In this document: piece after piece, positions 4,491-51,902 of the stretch
How the letters are laid out: every line of letters starts with the position of its first letter
Numbering within the stretch: the stretch's first letter is position 1
Assembly (NCBI GenBank): GCA_012516935.1
Contig: JAAYVZ010000046.1
Span: forward strand, 21,441-85,440
Reading direction: 5' to 3'
DNA length: 64,000 nucleotides
Source of the DNA: Holophagae bacterium
Lineage (GTDB): Bacteria; Acidobacteriota; Thermoanaerobaculia; Thermoanaerobaculales; Thermoanaerobaculaceae
Translations under genes and position numbers: made by a program
The notes under the pieces: generated by a model
Seen by the model: the letters and a program-made list of their open reading frames with translations, nothing else
Databases searched by the model: none
What the model was told of the DNA's origin: nothing

Positions 4491-5888
4491 ATGTACGCTT
4501 CGCGCGTGCTGGACGAGCTCCATGCGACAGCGCGCCACGCCATCACCGGAGATGCTTCCCGCCCGCTTTACCTACGGCTCGCGGAGGCCTTGACGCCCCA
4601 CGTCGCATCGGTAGGGGGCAACCTGCCGTCGGCGCGCCGCCTGGCCGGTGCGTTGGGTGTCAACCGTGCCACCGTCACCGCCGCCTATCGTGAGCTCTCG
4701 CGGCAGGGGCTGCTGGTGCTGCGGCCGGGTAGGCCGCGCCGCGGCGCCTACGGACAGCCGGCCTCGCAGCCGGTGGTGCCTGCGGACGGGCCCATCGACC
4801 TCGCGCGCTATGCCCCCGATCGCGAGCTACTGCCAGCCGGCAGGACGTTCGAGTGGCTGGGGGTTGGCGCTGCCGAAGGGGACGCTGTCGCCCAGTACGG
4901 AGATGCGTTGGGGTTCGGGCCGCTCCGCGAGTGGGTGACGCAGCGCCTGTCAGGCTACGGCATTCCCAGCCGCTCTGACTGTGTCATCCTGACCGGTGGC
5001 GTGCAGAACGCCCTCGATCTGCTGTTTCGAGCGCACCTCAATAGCGGCGACACGGTGCTGGTGGAGGACCCCTCGTACCCCGGCCTGCCGCCACTGCTGG
5101 CGCTGCACGGCGTCCACCCCGTGGGTGTCCCGGTGGGCGTCCACGGCCTTGACGTCGAGGCGTTGCGGGCTCTCGCCGTGCGCGAGCGTCCGCGCCTGGC
5201 GATCCTCACGCCCACCTTGCAGAACCCGAGTGGCGAGGTGCTCGGTGCCGGTGCACGCGGGGCGGTGCTGGAGACCTTGCGGCAGGTCGGATCGATCGTG
5301 ATCGAGGAGTTCTTCGACCCCGCCCTCGTGAGCGACGCCCCGGTGCCACCGCCGCTCGCCTCGCTCGACAGGCGGGTGGTGGTGGTCGGCTCGTTCTCGA
5401 AGGCGCTCTTCCCCGGGCTACGGGTGGGGTGGATCTCAGGCCCGTCCGAGCTGTTGGCCAAGGTCTCCCAGGTCAAGCAGGGCGCCGATCTGGCGGGGAG
5501 CGCGTTCCTCGAGGCGGCGGCGTGGACGCTCTGCGCCCGGGGGATCTTCACCTCGCAGTGCCAGCGGTTGCGACACCTGGCCGCTGAGCGGAGGGCGCAG
5601 GTGATGGCGGCGCTCGAGCAGGTACGAGGGGAGCTGGCCTGGAGTCGGCCGCGGGGCGGGTTCTCGATACTCGTGCAGTTGCCCCGCGGACAGAGCGCCC
5701 GAACCGTGGCGGAGAGGGCTGCCGCCCTCGGCGCCTGGGTGTTGGCGGGACCGGCGATGTCGGTCTCGGGTCGGGACGATGTTTTGCGCGTTGCGTTTGC
5801 CGCGGTCGGGGGGGAGCGCCTCGCACGCGGGCTCGGGTTTTTGAAGCGGGCGCTGGCGCCGGGAGCGGCGTCACCGGCCCTGGTTTGA
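4491..5888 (+). CDS. MocR/GntR-family regulator: wHTH plus class-I aminotransferase-like domain (PdxR-like)
   Basis: 465 aa. The N-terminal GntR wHTH region ([31 protein letters not shown]) is followed by a PLP aminotransferase fold. It ends 13 nt before pdxS on the same strand. Confidence 0.8.
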
Positions 5889-5901
5889 GGAGGAGCGGGA
5901 C

Positions 5902-6789
5902 ATGCACTTCGAGACACCGGAGTTCAGGGTCAAGGTCAACCTCGCCGAGAATCTCAAGGGCGGGGTCATCATGGATGTCACCGATGCAACGCAGGCGAAG
6001 ATCGCCGAGGATGCGGGCGCGGCTGCCGTCATGGCGCTCGAGCGCGTGCCGGCGGACATCCGCGCGCAAGGCGGTGTGGCGCGCATGGCAGCGGTCGAGA
6101 AGATCGTCGAGATCATGGCGTGCGTTGCCGTTCCGGTGATGGCCAAGTGCCGGATCGGCCACATCGCCGAGGCGCAGCTTCTCGAGGCGCTGGGCGTGGC
6201 GTTCGTCGATGAGTCCGAGGTCCTGACCCCCGCGGACGAGGAGAACCACGTCTGGAAACACGACTTCCGCGTGCCGTTCGTGTGCGGATGCCGCAACCTC
6301 GGCGAGGCGCTGCGCCGCATCGGCGAGGGCGCAGCGATGATGCGCACCAAGGGTGAGGCGGGGTCAGGCAACATCGTCGAGGCGGTGCGCCACCTACGCG
6401 CGGTGCGGCGCGAGATACGGCGCCTCGGCACCCTCGATCCCGCTGAGCTGGTTCCCGCCGCCAAGGAGCTCCAGGCTCCACTCGAGCTCGTGCGCTTCGT
6501 GGCCGAGCACGGCAAGCTCCCGGTCCCGAACTTCGCCGCTGGAGGGGTGGCGACGCCCGCCGACGCGGTGCTGTGCATGATGCTCGGGGCCGAGGCCGTG
6601 TTCGTGGGCTCCGGGATCTTCAAGTCCGAGGATCCCGCTCGCCGCGCCAAGGCGATCGTGCAGGCCGTCGCCCATTGGCAGGAGCCTGGCAAGGTCCTCG
6701 AGGTCTCGCGGGGCCTCGAGGGTGCCATGTCGGGGCTCGACGTGGCCAAGCTCACGCCGGAGGAAATGCTCTCCAGACGGGGGTGGTAG
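5902..6789 (+). CDS. pdxS: pyridoxal 5'-phosphate synthase lyase subunit PdxS
   Basis: 295 aa. Highly conserved PdxS sequence (GGVIMDVT...[40 protein letters not shown]). Confidence 0.95.
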
Positions 6790-22398: not shown

Positions 22399-23463
22399 TT
22401 GGATCTTCAACTGCCGCGCGTATGCGGTGCGCTGGCCCCCGTGATCGTGGTGCTCATAGCCCTGGTGGGGGGGGGATGCGGACGCAAGGCCGACCCGATG
22501 CCTCCGGTCATCGAGGTTCCCGAGACGACGACCGATCTGGAGGTGCGACAGGAGGGAAGTGAGGCCGTCCTTGACTGGTCGTTCCCGCAGCTCACCAGGG
22601 CCGGGCGGCGGCTCGTCGACCTCGAGCGGGTCGAGGTGTGGAAGCTCGATGTGCCGCCGGGCCAGGAGCAGGTGGGCGGCGGTCCCTCGGGCGCCGAGCT
22701 GCGGCGTCAGCTCATGCTGGGCCGTGGGCGTCTCATCGGGCGGCTCGAAGGCAAAGGCCTCGAGCAGGCAACCCGCGGCCCCAAGCTCGAGGTGCGCGAT
22801 CCGTTGCCACCGATCCCAGCCGGGCAGGTGGCGCCAACCTTCTGGTACGCGGTGCGGACGCGGCGGCGCGACGGCACCCCGTCGGCGCTCTCCAACATCG
22901 CTGTCTGGCAGGTCAAGCCCGTCCCCCAACCGGTGCAGGGCCTCACAGCCCAACCGACGGCACGGGGGATCAGCCTGACGTGGCAGGAGCTCCCCGAGTG
23001 CACGTACCAGGTGGAGCGCTTCGGGCGCCCCGAACCGGCCTGGAAGGCGGTGTCCGAGCCGACGCTCGCCCAGGCGTCGTTCGTGGACACCACGGCGACG
23101 CAGAACGCCTCGTGGCGCTACCGGGTGCGGGCGGTGAAAGACGCGGTGTGGGGGCCGCCGGGCAAGGATGTTCCGGTGGCGTATCCAGATGTCTACCCGC
23201 CCGCCGCGGTGGAACGTCTCGTGTGTCTGCCGGAAGGCGACAAGGTGCTCCTGCGCTGGGACCCGCTGGCCGAGCCGAAGGTGCTGTACCGCGTCTTCCG
23301 GCGCCGGAACACGCTGTGGATCCACCTCGTCGACGACGCGCGCGAGCCGCGTTTCGTCGATACCACTCCGCCAGCCGGAGATGCCGAGTACGCGGTCAAA
23401 GCCGTGGACGCGGCGGGCAACGAGTCCGAGCCCGTCTACTGCACGGTGCGGGGTGAGCGGTGA
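22399..23463 (+). CDS. putative membrane-anchored/lipoprotein with two fibronectin-III-like domains
   Basis: Hydrophobic anchor LPRVCGALAPVIVVLIALVGGGC (start TTG 22399 or GTG 22441). Then Pro-rich beta-sandwich repeats (two W/Y-rich FN3-like units). The upstream part of the 22198 ORF is non-coding-like. Confidence 0.55.
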   Translation: MDLQLPRVCGALAPVIVVLIALVGGGCGRKADPMPPVIEVPETTTDLEVRQEGSEAVLDWSFPQLTRAGRRLVDLERVEVWKLDVPPGQEQVGGGPSGAELRRQLMLGRGRLIGRLEGKGLEQATRGPKLEVRDPLPPIPAGQVAPTFWYAVRTRRRDGTPSALSNIAVWQVKPVPQPVQGLTAQPTARGISLTWQELPECTYQVERFGRPEPAWKAVSEPTLAQASFVDTTATQNASWRYRVRAVKDAVWGPPGKDVPVAYPDVYPPAAVERLVCLPEGDKVLLRWDPLAEPKVLYRVFRRRNTLWIHLVDDAREPRFVDTTPPAGDAEYAVKAVDAAGNESEPVYCTVRGER

Positions 23464-24269
23464 GGGCGGCCAAGCTCCACGGCGCGGGCAACGACTTCCT
23501 GCTTTTCGACGGCCACGACGCCTCCCTCCAGGAGCGCCTCCCGGGTGTGGTGGCGCGCCTTTGTCACCGCCGTCTCGGGATCGGTGCCGACGGCGTGCTA
23601 CTAGTCGTGCCGTACGGGTCGACCGAGGCACGGGTGCTGTATTGGAACAGCGACGGCTCACCAGCGGCGTTCTGCGCCAACGGAACGCGCTGTGCGGCCC
23701 GCTTCGCGGCGCGGCGCTGGGGGTGGGAATCGATGGTCCTCCATACGCCGTTCGCGCCGGTGCCGGCGAGGGCCGCTGCGAAAGAGGTGGAGCTCGGGCT
23801 GCCGGCGCCGCTGGAGGTGGGCGCCTGGCACGACCTTGAGGTTGGCAGCGAAACGGTGAGAGGGCGCCGCCTGGTGCTGGGTGTGCCTCATCTGGTGGTC
23901 CCGGTCGACTGGGCTGACTTCTGGATCCGGCCCCTCGACCCCCTCGCACCGGGGCTGCGTGCCCACCCCGATCTGCCGCCTGGCGGTGCCAACGTGACGT
24001 TCGTGCGGAGCCAGGTCGGCGTGCTCGAGGCCCGTTCGTTCGAGCGCGGCATCGAGGCCGAGACGCTCTCGTGCGGGTCGGGGGACGTGGCCGCGGCGCT
24101 GGTCGCGGTGGCCGAGGGCTGGCTACCACCTCCGGTGGAGGTGCGCACGGCCTCGGGCAGGACCCTGCGGGTCGCGCCGGATGGGAAGGCGCCGGCATGC
24201 TCCTCGCGCCTGACCGGCCCGGCCGAGTGGGTCGCCGACCTCGAGATCGCGGCCGAGCTCCTCGCGTAG
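23460..24269 (+). CDS. dapF: diaminopimelate epimerase
   Basis: GAGNDFLLFD and ...SCGSGDVAAA (both catalytic Cys regions). GTG start overlaps the upstream TGA. Confidence 0.85.
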   Translation: MRAAKLHGAGNDFLLFDGHDASLQERLPGVVARLCHRRLGIGADGVLLVVPYGSTEARVLYWNSDGSPAAFCANGTRCAARFAARRWGWESMVLHTPFAPVPARAAAKEVELGLPAPLEVGAWHDLEVGSETVRGRRLVLGVPHLVVPVDWADFWIRPLDPLAPGLRAHPDLPPGGANVTFVRSQVGVLEARSFERGIEAETLSCGSGDVAAALVAVAEGWLPPPVEVRTASGRTLRVAPDGKAPACSSRLTGPAEWVADLEIAAELLA

Positions 24270-24410
24270 CAGCTCCTCCGCACCCACACCGGACCTCGAT
24301 CCCGCCTCCGACCCCGCGTGGCTGGCCACCGCAGGCGGGGCTGTCCTCGATATCCGGCTCGAGGGTGGAGCCAGCCGCAGACCACGGGTCCCGGGTCGCC
24401 GCAGCTGCGG

Positions 24411-26300
24411 CTACTCGTAGCGGGCCAGGAGCTCGGGGAGCAACGGGCGCAGCGCGGTCATGATCGTCTGCTCGCGCTCGCCGTCGTGGCGACACGGAAT
24501 GCGCTCGACCGTCACCCCGCCCCGACTCACGGTGAGTTCCTCGCCTTGCAGGCGAACGAGCGCGCCCGCGGGGAGCAGATCGCGGGCCACCGTCTCCTCC
24601 ACCGCATGCGGCTCGTCGAGCACCACGATGTCGGCACCCTGGTGGAACATACCTTCGGCCGCAATATCGTTTTCGCCGTGGTGGATCGCCGCCACGTCGA
24701 GCTGCGGCCAGCGGAGCAGCATCTTGACGTTCTGGGCGTGGCTGCGGTTGTGGGCGAACGGCACCCCACCGAACGACACGCCGTCGGGTGTGAGGGCGCC
24801 GAATCCCAACCCGGGGCGGAGCTTTTCGAACGCCGCGCGCAGCATCTCGCAGAGCGAGACCGTCAGGCAGTTGCCGGCGATGATGGGGATGCGCGAGCGC
24901 TCGGGGCGCGGGAAGTGCGCCTCCATGATCTTCCCTGGAACATCCACTGAGCCGCCGATCGCCGGGCAAAGGTGCATGAACACGCCGGGGCCGGCGTTGA
25001 TCTCGATGATCCCGAAGTCTCCTTCGGTCCAGGGACGAGAGATGTCGCGCGCCAGCACGTCGATCCCCAGGCAGGTCAGCTTGAAAAACCCGGCGATGTC
25101 CTCCACGAGCTTGACGTTGGCGGGGTGCACGCGGTCGCTGACGTTGATCGACACCCCACCGGCCGAGAGGTTGGCGACGCGGCGCAGGTAGACTCGCTCT
25201 CCAGCCGCCGGGATGGTGGCCAGCGTCCGCCCCTGCTGCTTGAGGAAGTCCTGGAGGTCCTCGTCCACCTTGATCTTGCCGAGTGGCGAGCGGGCCGTGT
25301 CGGCGCGCGCCTCGGTGGCGTTCTCGGTCTCGATGAGCTTCTCGATGGCGTCACGACCGTTCCCGTCCACGAACGCCGGTAGGCGCTGTAGCGCCGCGGC
25401 GAACCGGCCGTTCACCGCCAGCAACCGATGGTCGGTGCCGGAAATATGCTTTTCGACCACGGCGCCGTCGAACGGCGTCCCGTGCTCGCGAGCGCTATCG
25501 ACGATGCCGTGGAACGCCTTGCGCACGCCCTCGAGGTCGTCGATACCGGTCACCACGCCCTGTCCCTTGTGTCCGGCCACCGGCTTCACGACCACCGGGA
25601 ACCCCAGCCCCTCCGCCTCACGCAGCGTCTGCTCCTCGCGCATACAGGAGCGCCCCGCGGGGGTCGGGAAACCGCACATCAGCAAGAAGTCCTTCACCAT
25701 GTCCTTGTACATGGTGAACTCGGTGTCTTTGATCGAGTCGGTATGGAACGTCGTCGAGCGCCCGCGCACCTGCCGCCGACCGTACCCCCACTGGAACTGG
25801 TTCTCCTCCCAGAGGTAGTGGACGGGGATGTGGCGCTCGTGGGCAGCCTCGAGCAGCGAGTAAAGCGTCGGTCCGCCGTAGAGGGTCTTGCCGAACGTGG
25901 CCTGAAGCCTGGTGAAGCGCTCGCTGAAGTCCGACGCGCGTTCCCGCTGCAGTGCCCGGAACCAATCACGCACGAGATAAACGGCGTCTTCCGCGGTGTC
26001 CTGGTCGAGATACTCGGCGGCGATGAGGTGCTCCCCGCCGGCAGGTTGCAGGCAGGACTTACCGATGAACAGGTCCAGATCGAGCCGGAGGACGGCCATC
26101 AGGGCCAGCCGAAACAGGTCGGCGACGCTCTTCGGCGAGGCATGCGCGAGCGCCGGCAGCGTGCTGGACACCGCCCGCAGGAACGGGGTGACCGCGCGCG
26201 CCTCGGCACCGACGTAGAGATGGAAGGCGAAGGCGCGGCAGTCGAGGAAGCGGTTCGGTCCGGGAAAAAAGCGCAGGTTGGAGATCTCGAAGCTGGTCAT
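24411..26300 (-). CDS. cyanophycin synthetase-like protein, truncated CphA2-type (N domain + ATP-grasp G domain + degenerate partial Mur-ligase domain)
   Basis: 629 aa. The N-terminus resembles CphA. The ATP-grasp core ([14 protein letters not shown]...[16 protein letters not shown]...ANLSAGG...EINAGPG) aligns to the CphA G domain. [14 protein letters not shown] occupies the position of the M-domain P-loop (IPIIAVTGTNGKTT) but the GKT is lost. The protein ends about 150 aa into the M domain. Confidence 0.65.
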
Positions 26301-26385
26301 GGGGTGCTCCCGTGGTCCGGGGAGAGAACCCCGGTACGCGAGAGCTTACACTACCCTCGGGACGTCCCGAGAGGAGGTTGCGACC

Positions 26386-26898
26386 GTGGCCGCACGGATC
26401 ATCGTGGTCGAGGGGGACATCACCCAGCAGGCCGTCGACGCCATCGTCAACGCCGCCAACGCGAGCCTGCTGGGAGGCGGAGGCGTTGACGGAGCGATCC
26501 ACCGGGCCGCGGGGCCGGAGCTGCTGGCGGCGTGTCGTGCGCTCGGGGGCTGTCCCACCGGTGAGGCGCGCATCACCGGAGGGTACCGGCTGCCTGCCCG
26601 CCACGTCATCCACACCGTGGGGCCGGTGTGGCGGGGCGGCGGGTGCGGCGAGGACGAGCTGCTGGCATCGTGCTACCGGGCGAGCCTCGGGCTCGCCGTT
26701 CAACACCAGGTTCGGTCCATCGCCTTCCCGGCCATCTCGACCGGTGCCTACGGCTTCCCGATCGAGCGGGCGGCAAGTATCGCGGTGCGGACAATCCGCA
26801 GCTTCCTCGACACGCACGGCGAGATCGACGAGGTTCGGTTGGTGTGCTTCGGCCCCGAAGCGACGGCCATCCACCGGCGCGAGCTCGGCGGAGCCTGA
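26386..26898 (+). CDS. macro-domain protein (O-acetyl-ADP-ribose deacetylase, YmdB/MacroD-like)
   Basis: [40 protein letters not shown] is the canonical macro-domain signature. SD GAGGAGG sits 8 nt before GTG 26386. Confidence 0.8.
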
Positions 26899-39778: not shown

Positions 39779-42123
39779 TTGATCTTCACCATGCTGCCCT
39801 GGATGATGTTGAGGCCGCTAGCCTCGCTGCGGACGAGCGCCCCCTTGACCGTGGCCTGGGTGCTGCCAGAAAGCTTCGCGGTGCCGTTGCTCTCGACGGT
39901 GGCGCTGCTGGTGCCCGAGATGGTGGCCGTGGCGCCCCTCGCCGAGTAGTCGGACACTGCGTGATCGCTGATGTTCGAGGCCGTGCTGTTGATATCGTCG
40001 CCGGCGTTGAGGGCGATCTTGGACTGCGCCGTGACCGAGAAGTTCTTGCACAGGACCGAGACGTCGTCCTGGGCGGAGAGGGTGATCGACTTCGCCCTGA
40101 GCGTGTAGCTGCCCTCGGCCTCGAAGACGATGTCGCCCTTGGTCGAGCAGGTGATGGTGCTGCCCGAGATATCGAGCTTGAAGAAGTGGCCGCCGCCCTG
40201 GTCGCTGATGACGATGGAGCCCGAGGCGTCGTCGATGAGGATGAAGTGCCCGTTGTGACTCTGGATGAGGATGCGTTGGTTGGCGTCGTCCAGCTCCACG
40301 CGATGGCGTTCGGTGGTGAGCAGCTTCACGAACTTGTTCGTGTCGTCGAGAACGAGGGCGTTTTCGTTCTTGGTCCAGATCTGGATTCGCTCGAGCTCGT
40401 CGTTGAGATACATGCGGTGCTCGTGGTTGGTGCGCAGGTAGATGCCGCGCTTGTCGTCCTTCTCGGACATCAGGATGAGGTGGTCGTCGGCGGTGCGCAG
40501 CGCGATGGTGTTGCCGAGGTCGTCGGAGAGATCCGCCATCGAAAGGCTTTGGTTGCCCACGGTGGCGAGGGTGATGGCGCCGCGGTTGCTGCCTTCTTGC
40601 CGCTCGAGGTCCTGCATGACCAGGTGCTGGTTGCCGCCGGTGTTGAGGCGGATCGAGCCGTTCTTGTCGTCGAGCACGAGCTGGTGCTGGTACGGCGTCA
40701 GGATGCGGTTGCGCACCAGCTCGGTCGGCTGCACGATCGGCCGCTTGTCGGCGTTGTAGACGCTGCCGATGATGAGCGGGTTGTCGGGGTCGCCGTCGAG
40801 GAAGTCGACCACCACCTCGTCGCCGATGAGCGGGTGGAACTGGATGCCGTGCTTTTTCTGGGTGCTCTCATCCATGCCGGCATAGGGCGTCGTGACGCGA
40901 ACCCAGCACGAGCTGTTCTCGTCGTTCTGGCCGTCCGGGTCCCAGTGGAACTGCACCTTGGCGCGCCCGAGCTCGTCCATGTAGATCTTCGCGTCGTCGG
41001 GGCCGACCACGGTGGCCGTCTGCACGTTGATGAAGGGCTTCGGGATGTCTTGGGGAGGGCGGAAGACGGGGTCCTTGCGAAGGGCGGTGAGGGAGACCGA
41101 GTACTGCACCCCGCTATCGGCCTCCTGAGATGCGGAGTGGTCAACCGCCAGCAGCACCCAGTCGCCGTTCAGGTCCGAACGGTACGCCCGTGAGAGCGAC
41201 ATCACGCATCCGGCGGAGGCCGAGCGCCAGTCGCCGGTGGCGGCGAGGACCTTGCGCATCGCCGCTTCGGCCTCGACCGCGACCTTGGCGAGGGTACGGC
41301 CGCGACCGTCGTCCCGGTAGCGCTCGACGTTGTAGTCGTAGATCTCGAGGTCGGTGTTGCGCGGGGCGGTCTGCTCGACCCGTAGCGGCTTGCCGGGGTC
41401 GCGGTAGTCGTAATCCTTGTAGCGCACCTTGCCGGTATACGCGGACTCCTCATAGGTGAGGCTCGACAGGTACTCGTCCGCCGGTGCGAGGTCGCCGGTG
41501 GGGGTCTTGTACTGCACGCTCGACTCGGGGGCACAGGTGCCGTAATGAGCGGATTGGTCGCCGATGACCATCATCTCTTTCCCGTCGTGCGTGAAGTAGT
41601 AGAAGATCCCCTCCTCCTGCATGAGGCGGGAGATGAAAGCGAGGTCGGTCTCGCGGTACTGCACGCAGTACTCGCGCTCCGGATAGGAGCCGAGCCTGGG
41701 GTCGTACTTGCCGGACATGCCGCGCTCGTCGAGCACCTGCTTGATGATCGTGTCGGCGGACTTGCCCTGGAAGATCCGGCAGTGCCGGTGCTGGCCCAGC
41801 AGCCACAGCGTCGGCACCACCTCGACCGAGTAGATCCCCTGCTCCTGGTCGGCGCCGCCGAGCCCCGGCAAGCGGGCGTCGAGCTGCGAGAAGTGGGAGA
41901 CGATCCCGTAGTACTTCTTCTCCTTGCCGGCCCACTGCCGCTTGATCTCGACGCTCTGCCGGATCTGCGCGGCGACGTCGACGGCCGAGTCGCGCGACCA
42001 CAGCGTCAGGTGGTAGGCGAAAAGCGCCGAGATCTCCTCGTGGCCAGAGAACGACAGGACCTGGAAGAGGGTGCCACCGATCTTGCACGAGTACTGGGCC
42101 GTGTCAGCCCGCACAGCGCTCAT
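39775..42123 (-). CDS. vgrG: T6SS spike protein VgrG (TssI; gp27/gp5-like, C-terminal beta-helix)
   Basis: 782 aa. The N-terminal gp27-like region is followed by the gp5 OB-fold and ~15 beta-helical repeats (e.g. ALVLDDTNKFVKLLTTERHRVELDDANQRILIQSH...). Amino-acid composition is K/N/D/I/Y-rich and GC content is lower than its neighbours. Confidence 0.85.
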   Translation of the reverse strand: MSAVRADTAQYSCKIGGTLFQVLSFSGHEEISALFAYHLTLWSRDSAVDVAAQIRQSVEIKRQWAGKEKKYYGIVSHFSQLDARLPGLGGADQEQGIYSVEVVPTLWLLGQHRHCRIFQGKSADTIIKQVLDERGMSGKYDPRLGSYPEREYCVQYRETDLAFISRLMQEEGIFYYFTHDGKEMMVIGDQSAHYGTCAPESSVQYKTPTGDLAPADEYLSSLTYEESAYTGKVRYKDYDYRDPGKPLRVEQTAPRNTDLEIYDYNVERYRDDGRGRTLAKVAVEAEAAMRKVLAATGDWRSASAGCVMSLSRAYRSDLNGDWVLLAVDHSASQEADSGVQYSVSLTALRKDPVFRPPQDIPKPFINVQTATVVGPDDAKIYMDELGRAKVQFHWDPDGQNDENSSCWVRVTTPYAGMDESTQKKHGIQFHPLIGDEVVVDFLDGDPDNPLIIGSVYNADKRPIVQPTELVRNRILTPYQHQLVLDDKNGSIRLNTGGNQHLVMQDLERQEGSNRGAITLATVGNQSLSMADLSDDLGNTIALRTADDHLILMSEKDDKRGIYLRTNHEHRMYLNDELERIQIWTKNENALVLDDTNKFVKLLTTERHRVELDDANQRILIQSHNGHFILIDDASGSIVISDQGGGHFFKLDISGSTITCSTKGDIVFEAEGSYTLRAKSITLSAQDDVSVLCKNFSVTAQSKIALNAGDDINSTASNISDHAVSDYSARGATATISGTSSATVESNGTAKLSGSTQATVKGALVRSEASGLNIIQGSMVKIN

Positions 42124-50618: not shown

Positions 50619-51902
50619 TCAGACGGACGCCGCGACGAGCAGGCGCTGCAGGGCGACGTTGTCGCGGTGACCGGTGAAGGCGGCGCTCACCCGCCCGCGC
50701 AGGGGGTAGCCGAGGAGGTAGAGGTCGCCGATGATGTCGAGGATCTTGTGGCGCACGAACTCGTCGGGGAAGCGCAGGGTGGTGTTGACGACGTTGTCCT
50801 CGCCGACGAGGATGAAGTTGTCGAGCCGGCCGCCCGAACCCAAGCCCAGCTCCTTGATCATCGGCAGGTCGCGCAAGAACCCGAAGGTGCGAGCTGGGGC
50901 GATCTGCGCCTGGAAGGCGTCGAAGCCAGTGAGCCGGAATGAGTAGAGCTGCTCGCCGATCGGGGGTGGGTAGCGCAAGTGGTACGTGACCTCGAGGCAG
51001 TCCGAGGGCTCGATCCGCATCCGCTTGTCCCCCTTGAGGGGAAGCTCGTACGGCTTGTCGATGACGACCTCACGCCTGGGCACCCCTTGATCCTCGATGC
51101 CGATCTCCTCGATGCGCTGGCAAAACTCGAGCGCTGAGCCGTCGAGCACCGGGATCTCGCCGTGTACCTTCACCAGCAAGTTGGTGATGCCGGCGGCGTG
51201 CAGGGTGGCGAGCAGGTGCTCGATGGTACGGATCTCCTCGCCTCCTCCGCGCAGCGTGGTCGCATACTCGGTGTCACCTACCGAGGTGAGGTGAGCTGGG
51301 ATTTGGACCCCCGCCGGCAGGGTCACGAAGTGGATGCCTGAGTCGGGTGGCAACGCCTGGAGCACCAGGCCCGTGCGGCTGCCGGAGTGCAGCCCGAGCC
51401 CGTAGATGACGAAGGCGGAACGAATCGTGCGCTGAGGTACCTGGGTGCTGCGCACGATCGGCAGCAGCGGCGGCGGCGAGAACACTCGGGCTGGCTCGCT
51501 CGCAGGTGAGGGGTCGAGCAACGAGCCGGCGCTGCCACTGCGCACCTCCAGGGCGCTTCTGAGGGTATCGACGACGCGCCCCAGGGACAGTGGCTTTTCG
51601 AGGTAGTCGTGGGCGCCGAGCTTGATCGAGCGCACGGCGGTGGTGGCTTGCCCATGCCCGGACATCATGATGATCGCGGCGTCGGGATCCATGGCGCGGA
51701 GTGCTTGTAGCGTCTCGAGACCGTCGCGATCGGGGAGCCAGACGTCGAGAAACACCGCCACCGGTCGCAGCTTTTGGTACAGGCGGAGCGCTTCCTCGCC
51801 GGACGGGGTGCTGGCGACCTCGTACCCCTCGTCGGCGAGGATCTGACCCAGGGTGGTGAGGATGCCGGGCTCGTCATCGACGATGAGGACCAGATCCTTC
51901 AT
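50619..51902 (-). CDS. lpxC: response-regulator receiver domain fused to UDP-3-O-acyl-N-acetylglucosamine deacetylase (REC-LpxC)
   Basis: Residues 1-120 form a CheY-like REC domain (LIVDDEP...FLDVWLPDRDGLETL...SGHG...LEKP). A Pro/Ser linker follows. Then comes a full LpxC domain (GLGLHSG, ...ARTFGFLRD..., EFVRHKILDIIGDLYLLG). Confidence 0.85.
   Translation of the reverse strand: MKDLVLIVDDEPGILTTLGQILADEGYEVASTPSGEEALRLYQKLRPVAVFLDVWLPDRDGLETLQALRAMDPDAAIIMMSGHGQATTAVRSIKLGAHDYLEKPLSLGRVVDTLRSALEVRSGSAGSLLDPSPASEPARVFSPPPLLPIVRSTQVPQRTIRSAFVIYGLGLHSGSRTGLVLQALPPDSGIHFVTLPAGVQIPAHLTSVGDTEYATTLRGGGEEIRTIEHLLATLHAAGITNLLVKVHGEIPVLDGSALEFCQRIEEIGIEDQGVPRREVVIDKPYELPLKGDKRMRIEPSDCLEVTYHLRYPPPIGEQLYSFRLTGFDAFQAQIAPARTFGFLRDLPMIKELGLGSGGRLDNFILVGEDNVVNTTLRFPDEFVRHKILDIIGDLYLLGYPLRGRVSAAFTGHRDNVALQRLLVAASV

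What the first reader, a model, noticed from the sequence alone, without database searches (positions are those of the whole stretch)
24411..26300. Truncated CphA2-type cyanophycin synthetase-like gene outside a cyanophycin cluster, divergent from a macro-domain gene
The protein has the CphA N domain and ATP-grasp G domain but only about 150 aa of the Mur-ligase-like M domain. The P-loop is degenerate ([12 protein letters not shown] instead of IPIIA(V)TGTNGKTT). This matches the CphA2 architecture known from cyanobacteria, which polymerises beta-Asp-Arg dipeptides. No cyanophycinase or full-length cphA1 is nearby. Its divergent partner 85 bp away is a MacroD/YmdB-type ADP-ribose-processing enzyme.
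Basis: partly seen in the sequence, partly recalled or inferred. Interest (0 to 1): 0.55.

Follow-up and report, generated by a model that had tools for sequence, protein, structure and literature searches.

The report
Orphan cyanophycin synthetase 2 in Acidobacteria
This gene encodes a short, single-active-site relative (CphA2) of the enzyme that builds the nitrogen-storage polymer cyanophycin; the papers read here describe CphA2 only in cyanobacteria, but here it stands alone near the replication origin of an uncultured acidobacterium and belongs to a large non-cyanobacterial branch of the family.

Summary
ORF 24411-26300 (-) encodes a 629-aa protein. It aligns end to end with the two solved CphA2 structures (E 1e-140 and 1e-138; predicted fold TM 0.86/0.92 to 7TA5). 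It has an N domain, an ATP-grasp G domain and a 159-aa M-domain stump whose P-loop is lost. It lacks the CphA1 N-domain Cx19HxxEH motif, and it keeps 9 of the 11 cyanophycin/beta-Asp-Arg contact residues checked. It groups with CphA2, not CphA1, at 100% bootstrap. The organism is a Thermoanaerobaculaceae MAG (Acidobacteriota). Recent papers call CphA2 cyanobacteria-only, yet full-length relatives occur in MAGs labelled with at least 12 other lineages. In 25 of 39 sampled loci they sit next to cyanophycinase, IadA and/or CphA1. The window lineage is a derived orphan: no cyanophycin gene lies within about 73 kb, yet dN/dS is 0.15 overall and 0.08 in the G domain. The macro-domain neighbour is retained only in an 88% relative, so no functional link is supported. 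Whether this genome has cphA1 or a cyanophycinase elsewhere is unresolved. Verdict: a new member of a known family, of moderate interest.

The parts
24411..26300 (-). CphA2-type cyanophycin synthetase gene (629 aa plus stop)
   Evidence: ORF. Full-length phmmer hits to the CphA2 structures 7ta5 (E 1.6e-140) and 8fxh (E 1.2e-137). AlphaFold model with pLDDT 90. Foldseek top hits are 7ta5 and 8fxi. dN/dS 0.15 against the 88% orthologue.
25881..26300 (-). N domain (aa 1-140); non-catalytic and lacking the CphA1 Cx19HxxEH primer-generating motif
   Evidence: Domain border from alignment to StCphA2. Regex search for the motif is negative here and positive in the L005 CphA1. The motif and its absence from CphA2 are described in PMC9262961.
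24891..25880 (-). G domain (aa 141-470), the ATP-grasp fold and the only predicted active site
   Evidence: Pfam ATP-grasp_5. P144, T145, T184, R292, D346, R373, N377, S379 and G439 match StCphA2 substrate-contact or mutation-sensitive residues; D212 is E194 and H208 is I190 (with PMC10273328). K239, H244, K245, E433 and N435 are invariant across 19 CphA2-type sequences. dN/dS 0.084.
24414..24890 (-). Truncated, predicted inactive M domain (aa 471-629)
   Evidence: Aligns to the StCphA2 M domain, 487-636. Confidently modelled, with block pLDDT 84-97. No distal Mur-ligase part anywhere in the window.
24858..24893 (-). Degenerate P-loop remnant [12 protein letters not shown] (aa 470-481)
   Evidence: Pairwise alignment to CphA1 7lgm, which reads RVPIAAITGTnGKTT.
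26301..26385 (.). 85-bp divergent intergenic region shared with the macro gene; contains a conserved 14-nt block at 26341-26354
   Evidence: Sequence. Alignment with the 88% relative shows GTAGTGTAAGCTCT conserved amid diverged flanks. No sigma-70 consensus was found.
26386..26898 (+). Neighbouring macro-domain gene (O-acetyl-ADP-ribose deacetylase type); adjacent, with no functional link supported
   Evidence: Pfam Macro 8.4e-48. NCBIfam NF001664 at 238 bits against a cutoff of 200. The adjacency is found only in the window species and its 88% relative.
23460..24269 (+). Convergent dapF gene that bounds the 3' end of the CphA2-type gene
   Evidence: Pfam DAP_epimerase. Named diaminopimelate epimerase by NCBI.

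Best explanation
The gene encodes a functional CphA2-type cyanophycin synthetase. Its single ATP-grasp (G-domain) active site would phosphorylate the C-terminal backbone carboxylate of a cyanophycin chain with ATP and then add a preformed beta-Asp-Arg dipeptide. The N domain and the 159-aa M-domain stump serve only structural roles.

Shown here: family membership by sequence, predicted fold and phylogeny; conservation of substrate-contact residues; purifying selection; and the cyanophycin-cluster context of its relatives.

Inferred: the actual substrate and product. It is also inferred that in this Thermoanaerobaculaceae lineage the gene was separated from an ancestral cphB-cphA2-iadA-cphA1 cluster and now acts as a stand-alone dipeptide re-polymerase. 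The source of its beta-Asp-Arg is unknown; it could be the cell's own cyanophycin turnover or imported dipeptide.
For: Sequence: end-to-end phmmer matches to GcCphA2 7ta5 (E 1.6e-140) and StCphA2 8fxh (E 1.2e-137), against at most 216 bits for CphA1.

Structure: AlphaFold model with pLDDT 90 and pTM 0.87. Foldseek top hits are the entries titled 'cyanophycin synthetase 2' (7ta5, TM 0.86/0.92; 8fxi, 0.85/0.85). For CphA1 chains the target-normalised TM is only 0.55-0.69.

Phylogeny: NJ tree on 322 G-domain columns gives the CphA1 | CphA2-type split 100% of 200 bootstraps.

Residues:
- StCphA2 positions P162, T163, T202, R308, D362, R389, N393, S395 and G455 are conserved.
- D212 is replaced by Glu and H208 by Ile, which is the CphA1 state (PMC10273328).
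- The P-loop is lost and there is no Cx19HxxEH motif.

Family scale: the exhaustive representative search shows a score gap. About 20 clusters that match over most or all of the query score 232-696 bits (the full-length ones mostly 340-696); below them come CphA1-type proteins at 252 bits or less.

Context of homologues:
- L005 reads cyanophycinase (TIGR02069, 207 bits against 126.6), then the CphA2-type gene, then IadA (TIGR01975, 444 against 331), then CphA1 (TIGR02068, 999 against 850).
- The same cluster occurs in L008, L009, L010, L014, L015 and L044.
- 25 of 39 non-cyanobacterial loci are clustered.
- One protein is a cyanophycinase-CphA2 fusion.

Selection: dN/dS against the 88% orthologue is 0.153 overall and 0.084 in the G domain.
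Against: - No biochemical data exist for any non-cyanobacterial member of the family.
- Identity to the characterised enzymes is only 40-41%.
- Two cyanophycin-contact positions differ: D212 is Glu and H208 is Ile.
- No cyanophycinase, IadA or CphA1 lies within about 73 kb.
- None attributable to this heavily sampled species appeared among the 120 best relatives of cluster-type CphA1 or cyanophycinase. The source of substrate and primer in this organism is therefore unknown.
- The authors of the structure papers state that beta-Asp-Arg versus Asp specificity cannot be read from sequence (PMC10273328).
Confidence: 0.75

Rival explanations
1. Neo-functionalised orphan. After leaving the cyanophycin cluster, the enzyme kept the CphA2 fold but now ligates a different acceptor or donor, for example beta-Asp-Lys or other beta-aspartyl dipeptides, or plain Asp to give polyaspartate. 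Its product would then not be canonical cyanophycin.
For: - The orphan context holds in the whole window lineage.
- Contact residues change: D212 to Glu and H208 to Ile.
- The hexamer-interface residues Q416 and R528 are Glu and Gly here.
- Specificity is said to be cryptic in sequence (PMC10273328).
- No partner genes were found for this species.
Against: [quoted passage not shown]
- Most of these positions are invariant across the clustered and orphan members aligned.
- The G domain is the most constrained part of the protein (dN/dS 0.084).
- In the tree the lineage shows no unusually long branch.
Confidence: 0.12
2. Functional pair with the divergently transcribed macro-domain (ADP-ribose-processing) gene, for example an ADP-ribosylation-controlled ligase or a two-gene stress or defence module.
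For: The 85-bp head-to-head arrangement is retained in the 88% relative, even though a 1158-aa gene has been inserted just beyond the macro gene. The shared intergenic region contains a conserved 14-nt block.
Against: - Macro adjacency is absent from the 65% relative and from all the other sampled non-cyanobacterial loci, and from the cyanobacterial loci.
- The macro protein is an ordinary YmdB-type equivalog.
- Two closely related species sharing gene order is what synteny alone predicts.
Confidence: 0.03
3. A decaying remnant or assembly artefact of a full-length CphA1 gene, or a member of an unrelated ATP-grasp ligase family.
For: - NCBIfam cyanophycin synthetase models score far below their cutoffs (326 bits against 877) and cover only model positions 96-571.
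- NCBI names the protein 'hypothetical'.
- Homologues are often labelled 'acetate--CoA ligase family'.
Against: - The 629-aa ORF is intact and identical under four NCBI accessions and on 54 contigs.
- The homologues are overwhelmingly the same short type, most of them 625-635 aa.
- Purifying selection acts on the gene.
- The match to the solved CphA2 structures is full length.
- Support for the CphA2-type clade is 100%.
- No M-domain remainder exists in the window.
Confidence: 0.02

Closest known systems
Cyanophycin synthetase 2 (CphA2) of cyanobacteria: Gloeothece citriformis (PDB 7TA5) and Stanieria sp. (PDB 8FXH/8FXI)
   Same: - The same layout of N domain, ATP-grasp G domain and truncated M domain, in about 630 aa.
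- The M-domain P-loop is lost.
- No N-domain hydrolytic motif.
- The cyanophycin and putative beta-Asp-Arg contact residues are conserved.
- Full-length sequence and fold match.
- Same side of the CphA1/CphA2 split.
   Different: - Only 40-41% identical.
- Sits in a separate, non-cyanobacterial subclade.
- StCphA2 H208 is Ile and D212 is Glu.
- The Stanieria hexamer-interface residues Q416 and R528 are Glu and Gly, so a Stanieria-type hexamer is unlikely (inference).
- The host is an anaerobic-lineage acidobacterial MAG, not a cyanobacterium.
- No cyanophycinase gene about 1 kb upstream, unlike most of the cyanobacterial loci.
Non-cyanobacterial cphB-cphA2-iadA(-cphA1) clusters found here (e.g. 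L005 Acidobacteriota, L015 Thermoanaerobaculia, L014 Muiribacteriota, L010 Cloacimonetes)
   Same: The CphA2-type proteins are 51-58% identical to the window protein and belong to the same subclade. The nearest ones come from Acidobacteriota.
   Different: Those genes are flanked by cyanophycinase and IadA, and usually by CphA1. The window gene and its 88% and 65% relatives have lost that context.
Cyanophycin synthetase 1 (CphA1), e.g. Synechocystis UTEX2470 (7LG5) and A. baylyi (7LGM)
   Same: Homologous N and G domains and the first part of the M domain. The cyanophycin C-terminus binds in the G domain in the same way (PMC10273328).
   Different: - CphA1 is about 880 aa with a complete, active Mur-ligase-like M domain (P-loop GKT) that adds Arg.
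- CphA1 has the N-domain Cx19HxxEH motif.
- It is 24-34% identical to the window protein.
- The window protein fails the CphA1 NCBIfam cutoffs.
Orphan CphA2-type paralogues of Bacteroidales (L017, L020, L022, L027)
   Same: They also stand alone, with no cyanophycin gene within at least 3 kb (in most cases 10 kb) on either side.
   Different: They form an independent paralogous clade. At least two MAGs carry both an orphan copy and a clustered copy. For the window species a second copy or a cluster is not known.

Membership tests
CphA2 (cyanophycin synthetase 2) | Protein of about 630 aa with an N domain, an ATP-grasp G domain and a truncated M domain of about 150 aa | tested here: met
   N 1-140, G 141-470, M 471-629 by alignment to StCphA2. 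Full-length matches to 7ta5 and 8fxh. Fold TM 0.86/0.92 to 7ta5.
CphA2 (cyanophycin synthetase 2) | M domain catalytically dead: ATP-binding P-loop (GxxGKT) lost | tested here: met
   [12 protein letters not shown] here against RVPIAAITGTnGKTT in CphA1 7lgm. The same loss is seen in GcCphA2 and StCphA2.
CphA2 (cyanophycin synthetase 2) | N-domain primer-generating motif Cx19HxxEH absent (PMC9262961) | tested here: met
   Regex search is negative in the window protein and positive at residue 70 of the L005 CphA1.
CphA2 (cyanophycin synthetase 2) | G-domain residues that bind cyanophycin and the putative beta-Asp-Arg pocket, as mutated in StCphA2/GcCphA2 | tested here: met
   P144, T145, T184, R292, D346, R373, N377, S379 and G439 are conserved. 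D212 is conservatively replaced by E194 and H208 by I190 (PMC10273328).
CphA2 (cyanophycin synthetase 2) | Groups with characterised CphA2 to the exclusion of CphA1 | tested here: met
   100% of 200 NJ bootstraps on the G domain. A score gap is seen in the exhaustive search. The method is simple (NJ with Kimura distance).
CphA2 (cyanophycin synthetase 2) | [quoted passage not shown] | not testable with these tools
   Needs an enzyme assay.
CphA2 (cyanophycin synthetase 2) | [quoted passage not shown] This is a description, not a mechanistic criterion. | tested here: not met
   The host is a Thermoanaerobaculaceae MAG. The gene shares a 243-kb contig with dnaA, dnaN, gyrB and gyrA. Relatives occur in MAGs labelled with at least 12 non-cyanobacterial lineages.
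CphA2 (cyanophycin synthetase 2) | Same genome also encodes CphA1 and a cyanophycinase that supply substrate | tested here: inconclusive
   None within about 73 kb. None attributable to this species among the best 120 hits of the CphA1 and cyanophycinase searches. The rest of the genome could not be read.
CphA1 (cyanophycin synthetase 1) | Complete Mur-ligase-like M domain (Mur_ligase_M plus Mur_ligase_C) and a score above the TIGR02068/NF010623 cutoffs | tested here: not met
   316 bits against 850 and 326 bits against 877, covering only model positions 89-571. No Mur_ligase Pfam hit.
MacroD/YmdB O-acetyl-ADP-ribose deacetylase (the neighbouring gene) | Macro domain scoring above the equivalog cutoff | tested here: met
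   PF01661 at 8.4e-48. NF001664 at 238.4 bits against a cutoff of 200.

The most novel reading that the evidence does not exclude
This Thermoanaerobaculaceae species may have no CphA1 and no intracellular cyanophycinase at all. Its orphan CphA2 would then build the cell's own cyanophycin store purely from beta-Asp-Arg dipeptides scavenged from the community, for example released by secreted cyanophycinases of the kind reported in related Thermoanaerobaculia (PMC8528874). That would be cyanophycin synthesis without CphA1, a 'second-hand' nitrogen-storage lifestyle. Independent orphan CphA2 lineages in Bacteroidales hint that it could be common in anaerobic communities.
Probability: 0.3. Interest if true: 0.7.

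Novelty: new member of a known kind. Interest (0 to 1): 0.45.

Why it matters
[quoted passage not shown] The data gathered here show otherwise. The CphA2 architecture is widespread in uncultured, mostly anaerobic lineages, including Acidobacteriota, Bacteroidales, Negativicutes, Cloacimonetes, Muiribacteriota, Chlorobiota and Desulfobacterales. These genes are usually mis-annotated as 'acetate--CoA ligase family protein' or 'hypothetical'. They normally sit in a compact cluster of cyanophycinase, CphA2, IadA and CphA1.

This has three consequences. First, dipeptide re-polymerisation would be a general feature of cyanophycin turnover, not a cyanobacterial speciality. Second, surveys that count only cphA1 may miss part of the synthetic capacity. 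Third, the orphan copies such as the window gene make one question directly testable: can a bacterium store nitrogen as cyanophycin from scavenged dipeptides alone? For annotation, a dedicated CphA2 model would correct well over a thousand database entries.

Tried and rejected
- Consensus scans for sigma-70 promoters and intrinsic terminators over 24150-26500 found nothing. This is uninformative in 69% GC acidobacterial DNA.
- I tried to find cphA1 or cphB of the same species by searching with a cluster-type CphA1 and a Thermoanaerobaculia cyanophycinase. No hit carried a Thermoanaerobaculaceae name or the 50+ contig count typical of this species' proteins. Only the best 120 hits are shown, so absence is not proven. 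A screen for high-GC amino-acid composition picked out only proteins with very low contig counts, several on contigs already known to carry clustered CphA2 genes.
- The metagenome scan with the window protein returned only two loci, both already known.
- The listing of cluster members on the 50% representatives gave almost no taxonomy.
- The Biopython bootstrap timed out and was replaced by my own NJ code.
- The primary GcCphA2 paper (PMID 35179888) is not held. Residue roles were taken from the StCphA2 paper instead.
- The look-up of the right-end window protein failed, probably because the called start codon differs.
- Rejected ideas: a macro-CphA2 functional module (adjacency not conserved), a frameshifted CphA1, and an unrelated ATP-grasp ligase.
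Full report
**1. The observation**

- An ATG-started ORF runs from 26300 down to 24411 on the minus strand and encodes 629 aa.
- Its third-position GC is 0.88, typical of the real genes in this 65-72% GC window.
- Pfam sees only a weak ATP-grasp_5 match.
- The NCBIfam cyanophycin synthetase models match strongly but far below their cutoffs (326 bits against 877). They cover only model positions 96-571 of 871, which correspond to part of the N domain, the G domain and the start of the M domain.
- The macro-domain gene is real. It starts at GTG 26386 behind a GGAGG, 85 bp from the CphA2-type start codon, and passes the equivalog cutoff for O-acetyl-ADP-ribose deacetylase.

**2. What the protein is**

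Sequence comparison with solved structures:
- A search of all PDB chains gives two end-to-end matches: 7ta5_A (629 aa, E 1.6e-140) and 8fxh_A (642 aa, E 1.2e-137).
- The CphA1 structures reach only E 1e-55 to 1e-63, and only over residues 86-560 (most from about 138).
- Foldseek later gave the entry titles. 7ta5 is 'cyanophycin synthetase 2 from Gloeothece citriformis'. 8fxh and 8fxi are 'Stanieria sp. CphA2'.

Domains and motifs:
- The published StCphA2 limits are N 1-158, G 159-486 and M 487-636 (PMC10273328). On the window protein they map to N 1-140, G 141-470 and M 471-629.
- At the start of the M domain the window protein reads [13 protein letters not shown]. baylyi CphA1 has RVPIAAITGTnGKTT there, and the two CphA2 structures are equally degenerate.
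- The CphA1 N-domain hydrolytic motif Cx19HxxEH is reported to be missing from CphA2 (PMC9262961). It is absent here and present in a CphA1 control.

Predicted structure:
- An AlphaFold model built on a 19-sequence alignment is confident (pLDDT 90, pTM 0.87).
- It superposes best on 7ta5 (TM 0.86 by query length, 0.92 by target length) and on 8fxi (0.85/0.85).
- CphA1 chains are covered only in part, with target-normalised TM of 0.55-0.69.

**3. Active-site check**

The StCphA2 co-complex and mutagenesis paper names the residues involved (PMC10273328):
- P162, T163, T202, H208, D212 and R308 contact cyanophycin.
- The G455 backbone amide hydrogen-bonds the terminal carboxylate of cyanophycin, which points toward the ATP gamma-phosphate.
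- D362, R389, N393 and S395 line the putative beta-Asp-Arg pocket. Mutating D362, N393 or S395 to Ala abolishes activity.

In the window protein these positions are P144, T145, T184, I190, E194, R292, G439, D346, R373, N377 and S379.
- Nine of the eleven are identical.
- D212 is conservatively replaced by Glu.
- H208 is Ile, which the paper says is the residue found in Synechocystis CphA1.
- ATP-grasp hallmark positions (K239, H244, K245, E433, N435) are invariant across 19 CphA2-type sequences, including two cyanobacterial-type representatives.
- The Stanieria hexamer-interface residues Q416 and R528 are Glu and Gly here. R528G is part of the published hexamer-breaking double mutant, so a Stanieria-type hexamer is unlikely. 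This point is inference only.

**4. Phylogeny and size of the family**

- An exhaustive HMMER pass over 1.84 billion cluster representatives found 1817 hits below 1e-30.
- Only about 20 representative clusters match over most or all of the query, at 232-696 bits (the full-length ones mostly 340-696 bits).
- Below them come CphA1-type and multidomain proteins at 252 bits or less, matched only over parts of the query that end by about residue 580 (mostly from about 140).
- An NJ tree used 322 G-domain columns and 54 sequences: the two solved CphA2s, the representatives, diverse first-search hits, and 20 CphA1s including those co-located with CphA2-type genes.
- That tree recovers the CphA1 | CphA2-type split in 200 of 200 bootstraps.
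- A clade with GcCphA2 and StCphA2 has 96.5% support.
- The window protein sits in a separate, compact clade of non-cyanobacterial sequences. Support is 61%, or 85.5% when some long-branch representatives are included.
- Identity is 40-41% to the characterised enzymes, 51-58% to other members of its own clade, and 24-34% to CphA1.

**5. Whose gene it is**

- The identical protein is deposited as 'hypothetical protein [Thermoanaerobaculaceae bacterium]' under four NCBI accessions and seen on 54 contigs up to 267 kb.
- On a 243-kb ENA contig, the stretch covering the left third of the window continues leftwards into gyrB, recF, dnaN, dnaA, yidC, gidB and parAB.
- The gene therefore lies about 28 kb from dnaA (the end of dnaA to the stop codon of the gene) in a core chromosomal region.
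- The rest of the window is housekeeping: gyrA, transaldolase, pdxS, ispG, hslVU, dapF, aspS, lpxC, glgB and others.
- Contamination from a cyanobacterium is excluded.

**6. Relatives elsewhere and their context**

Literature. [quoted passage not shown] I found no paper in the library that reports the clade described here. The nearest is a genome note on three tandem CphA2-like genes in Bacillus horikoshii.

Taxonomic spread. A scan of GTDB species-representative genomes found full-length relatives at 42-58% identity in MAGs labelled:
- Negativicutes, Muiribacteriota, Thermoanaerobaculia and Holophagales
- many Bacteroidales/Bacteroidota, Chlorobiota, Desulfobacterales and Cytophagales
- Sumerlaeia, Coatesbacteria, CSSED10-310 and Eisenbacteria

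Cyanobacteria appear at 39-43% identity.

Gene neighbourhoods:
- They are strikingly uniform. In L005 (Acidobacteriota) the order is cyanophycinase, CphA2-type, IadA, CphA1, and each partner passes its NCBIfam equivalog cutoff.
- The same cluster recurs in L008, L009, L010, L014, L015 and L044.
- Of 39 non-cyanobacterial loci outside the window lineage, 25 have at least one cyanophycin gene within 8 kb. Four are clear orphans, and ten have flanks too short to judge.
- One protein (P0059) is a cyanophycinase-CphA2 fusion.
- This is strong guilt-by-association evidence that the clade works in cyanophycin turnover.

**7. The window gene as an orphan**

- tblastn with cyanophycinase, IadA and the distal CphA1 M domain finds nothing in the 64-kb window.
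- No relevant Pfam family turned up either.
- The same orphan state, with the macro gene divergent and dapF convergent, holds in an 88%-identical relative.
- A 65% relative also lacks cyanophycin neighbours. It has a TonB-dependent receptor upstream and no macro gene, but its contig is short.
- In a tree of proteins taken from the loci, these three nest among clustered Acidobacteriota-type sequences (L005, L015, L032, L008, L009). The orphan state is therefore derived.
- Bacteroidales orphans form an independent paralogous clade, and they co-exist with a clustered copy in at least two MAGs.
- The orphan is not decaying. dN/dS against the 88% orthologue is 0.153 overall, 0.084 in the G domain, 0.21 in N and 0.275 in M, with dS 0.45.

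**8. Mechanism proposed**

The G domain binds ATP and the C-terminus of a cyanophycin chain. It forms an acyl-phosphate and then adds a beta-Asp-Arg dipeptide. The N domain and the M stump stabilise the (probably dimeric) enzyme.

- Shown: family membership, residue conservation, purifying selection, and pathway context in relatives.
- Inferred: the substrate and product, the oligomeric state, and the physiological source of dipeptide.

I put 0.75 on this explanation. The rivals are:
- an altered substrate after loss of the cluster (0.12)
- a macro-coupled module (0.03)
- a remnant, artefact or unrelated ligase (0.02)

**9. What stays open**

- I could not read the rest of this genome.
- Searches with a cluster-type CphA1 and a Thermoanaerobaculia cyanophycinase returned no hit named Thermoanaerobaculaceae. 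None had the 54-68 contig counts seen for three proteins of this species that were checked, the CphA2-type, macro and DapF proteins.
- This argues against a cluster-type partner in this species, but other types are not excluded.
- Related marine Thermoanaerobaculia are reported to carry secreted cyanophycinases without any synthetase (PMC8528874).
- That fits the most novel reading, in which scavenged dipeptide is stored as second-hand cyanophycin. I rate its probability at about 0.3.

**10. Verdict**

- This is a well-supported new member of the CphA2 family in an unreported host lineage.
- The wider finding is that the family and a four-gene cluster extend far beyond cyanobacteria.
- The macro-domain neighbour is incidental.
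- Interest is moderate (0.45). The enzyme type itself is not new. What is new is a correction of the family's assumed range and a testable physiological question.

Caveats:
- The trees are NJ with a simple distance correction.
- The taxonomic labels are those given to MAGs. Two non-cyanobacterial labels that nest inside the cyanobacterial clade look like binning errors.
- Hit lists are capped at 120 or 150 entries.

Noticed in passing
L005 8982-16154; also L008, L009, L010, L014, L015, L044: A compact cluster of cyanophycinase, CphA2-type gene, IadA and CphA1 recurs in MAGs labelled with several non-cyanobacterial lineages. It does not appear in the cyanophycin bioinformatics papers I could read.
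   Followed up: yes
L004 80-2848 (protein P0059, 922 aa): A single polypeptide fuses an N-terminal cyanophycinase (TIGR02069, 202 bits) to a complete CphA2-type enzyme. It is followed by a pyroglutamyl-peptidase (Peptidase_C15) gene. A degrading and a re-polymerising activity on one chain is odd.
   Followed up: partly
L010 13065-15257; many hits of 710-748 aa: CphA1 genes next to CphA2-type genes often encode proteins of about 730 aa that lack the C-terminal Mur_ligase_C domain. This looks like a second kind of shortened cyanophycin synthetase.
   Followed up: no
L016 and L027 (MAG JAZDMF01); L021 and L031 (MAG PWND01): Bacteroidales carry two paralogous CphA2-type clades, one clustered with cphB and iadA and one orphan. 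At least one MAG has both (L016+L027); a second (L021+L031) has a clustered copy plus a copy of the orphan clade whose own flanks are too short to classify.
   Followed up: partly
L052, L056 (Geminicoccaceae); L079 (Acetobacteraceae); L087 (Actinomycetota): The two Geminicoccaceae MAGs have CphA2 genes sister to the cyanobacterial clade, which may reflect transfer. The 'Acetobacteraceae' and 'Actinomycetota' hits nest inside the cyanobacterial sequences and look like bin contamination.
   Followed up: partly
window 26341-26354: A 14-nt block (GTAGTGTAAGCTCT on the cphA2-sense strand) is conserved between the window and its 88% relative within the otherwise diverged 85-bp divergent intergenic region. 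It may be a promoter or operator element.
   Followed up: partly
window 50619-51902 (-): A response-regulator receiver domain is fused to the N-terminus of LpxC (UDP-3-O-acyl-GlcNAc deacetylase). This suggests phosphorelay control of lipid A synthesis.
   Followed up: no
window 34857-42123 (-): A run of genes: radical SAM; a PAAR-motif ORF (36331-37299) that overlaps the next ORF in the same orientation, so both calls cannot be right as listed; a B12-binding radical SAM (36846-38849); a 455-aa protein with no Pfam hit; and a VgrG-like Phage_GPD/Phage_base_V protein (39775-42123). No other type VI secretion genes were seen in the window.
   Followed up: no
window 4491-6789 (+): A GntR-aminotransferase fusion (MocR/PdxR-like regulator) lies directly upstream of pdxS, the classic PLP-biosynthesis regulatory pair.
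   Followed up: no
L095 1-10000 (left of the window): The window adjoins the chromosomal origin region (parB, parA, gidB, yidC, dnaA, dnaN, recF, gyrB). The CphA2-type gene is therefore origin-proximal, about 28 kb from dnaA.
   Followed up: partly
L006 5924-9400 and 18670-20166: In the 88% relative a 1158-aa AAA_16 gene is inserted between the DsbA-like gene and the macro gene, and a reverse-transcriptase (RVT_1) gene lies nearby. The macro/CphA2 pair stays intact.
   Followed up: no
L011 730-2583: In the 65% relative a TonB-dependent receptor gene lies 100 bp upstream of the orphan CphA2-type gene on the same strand, with an MFS transporter downstream. This may hint at coupling to uptake.
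   Followed up: no
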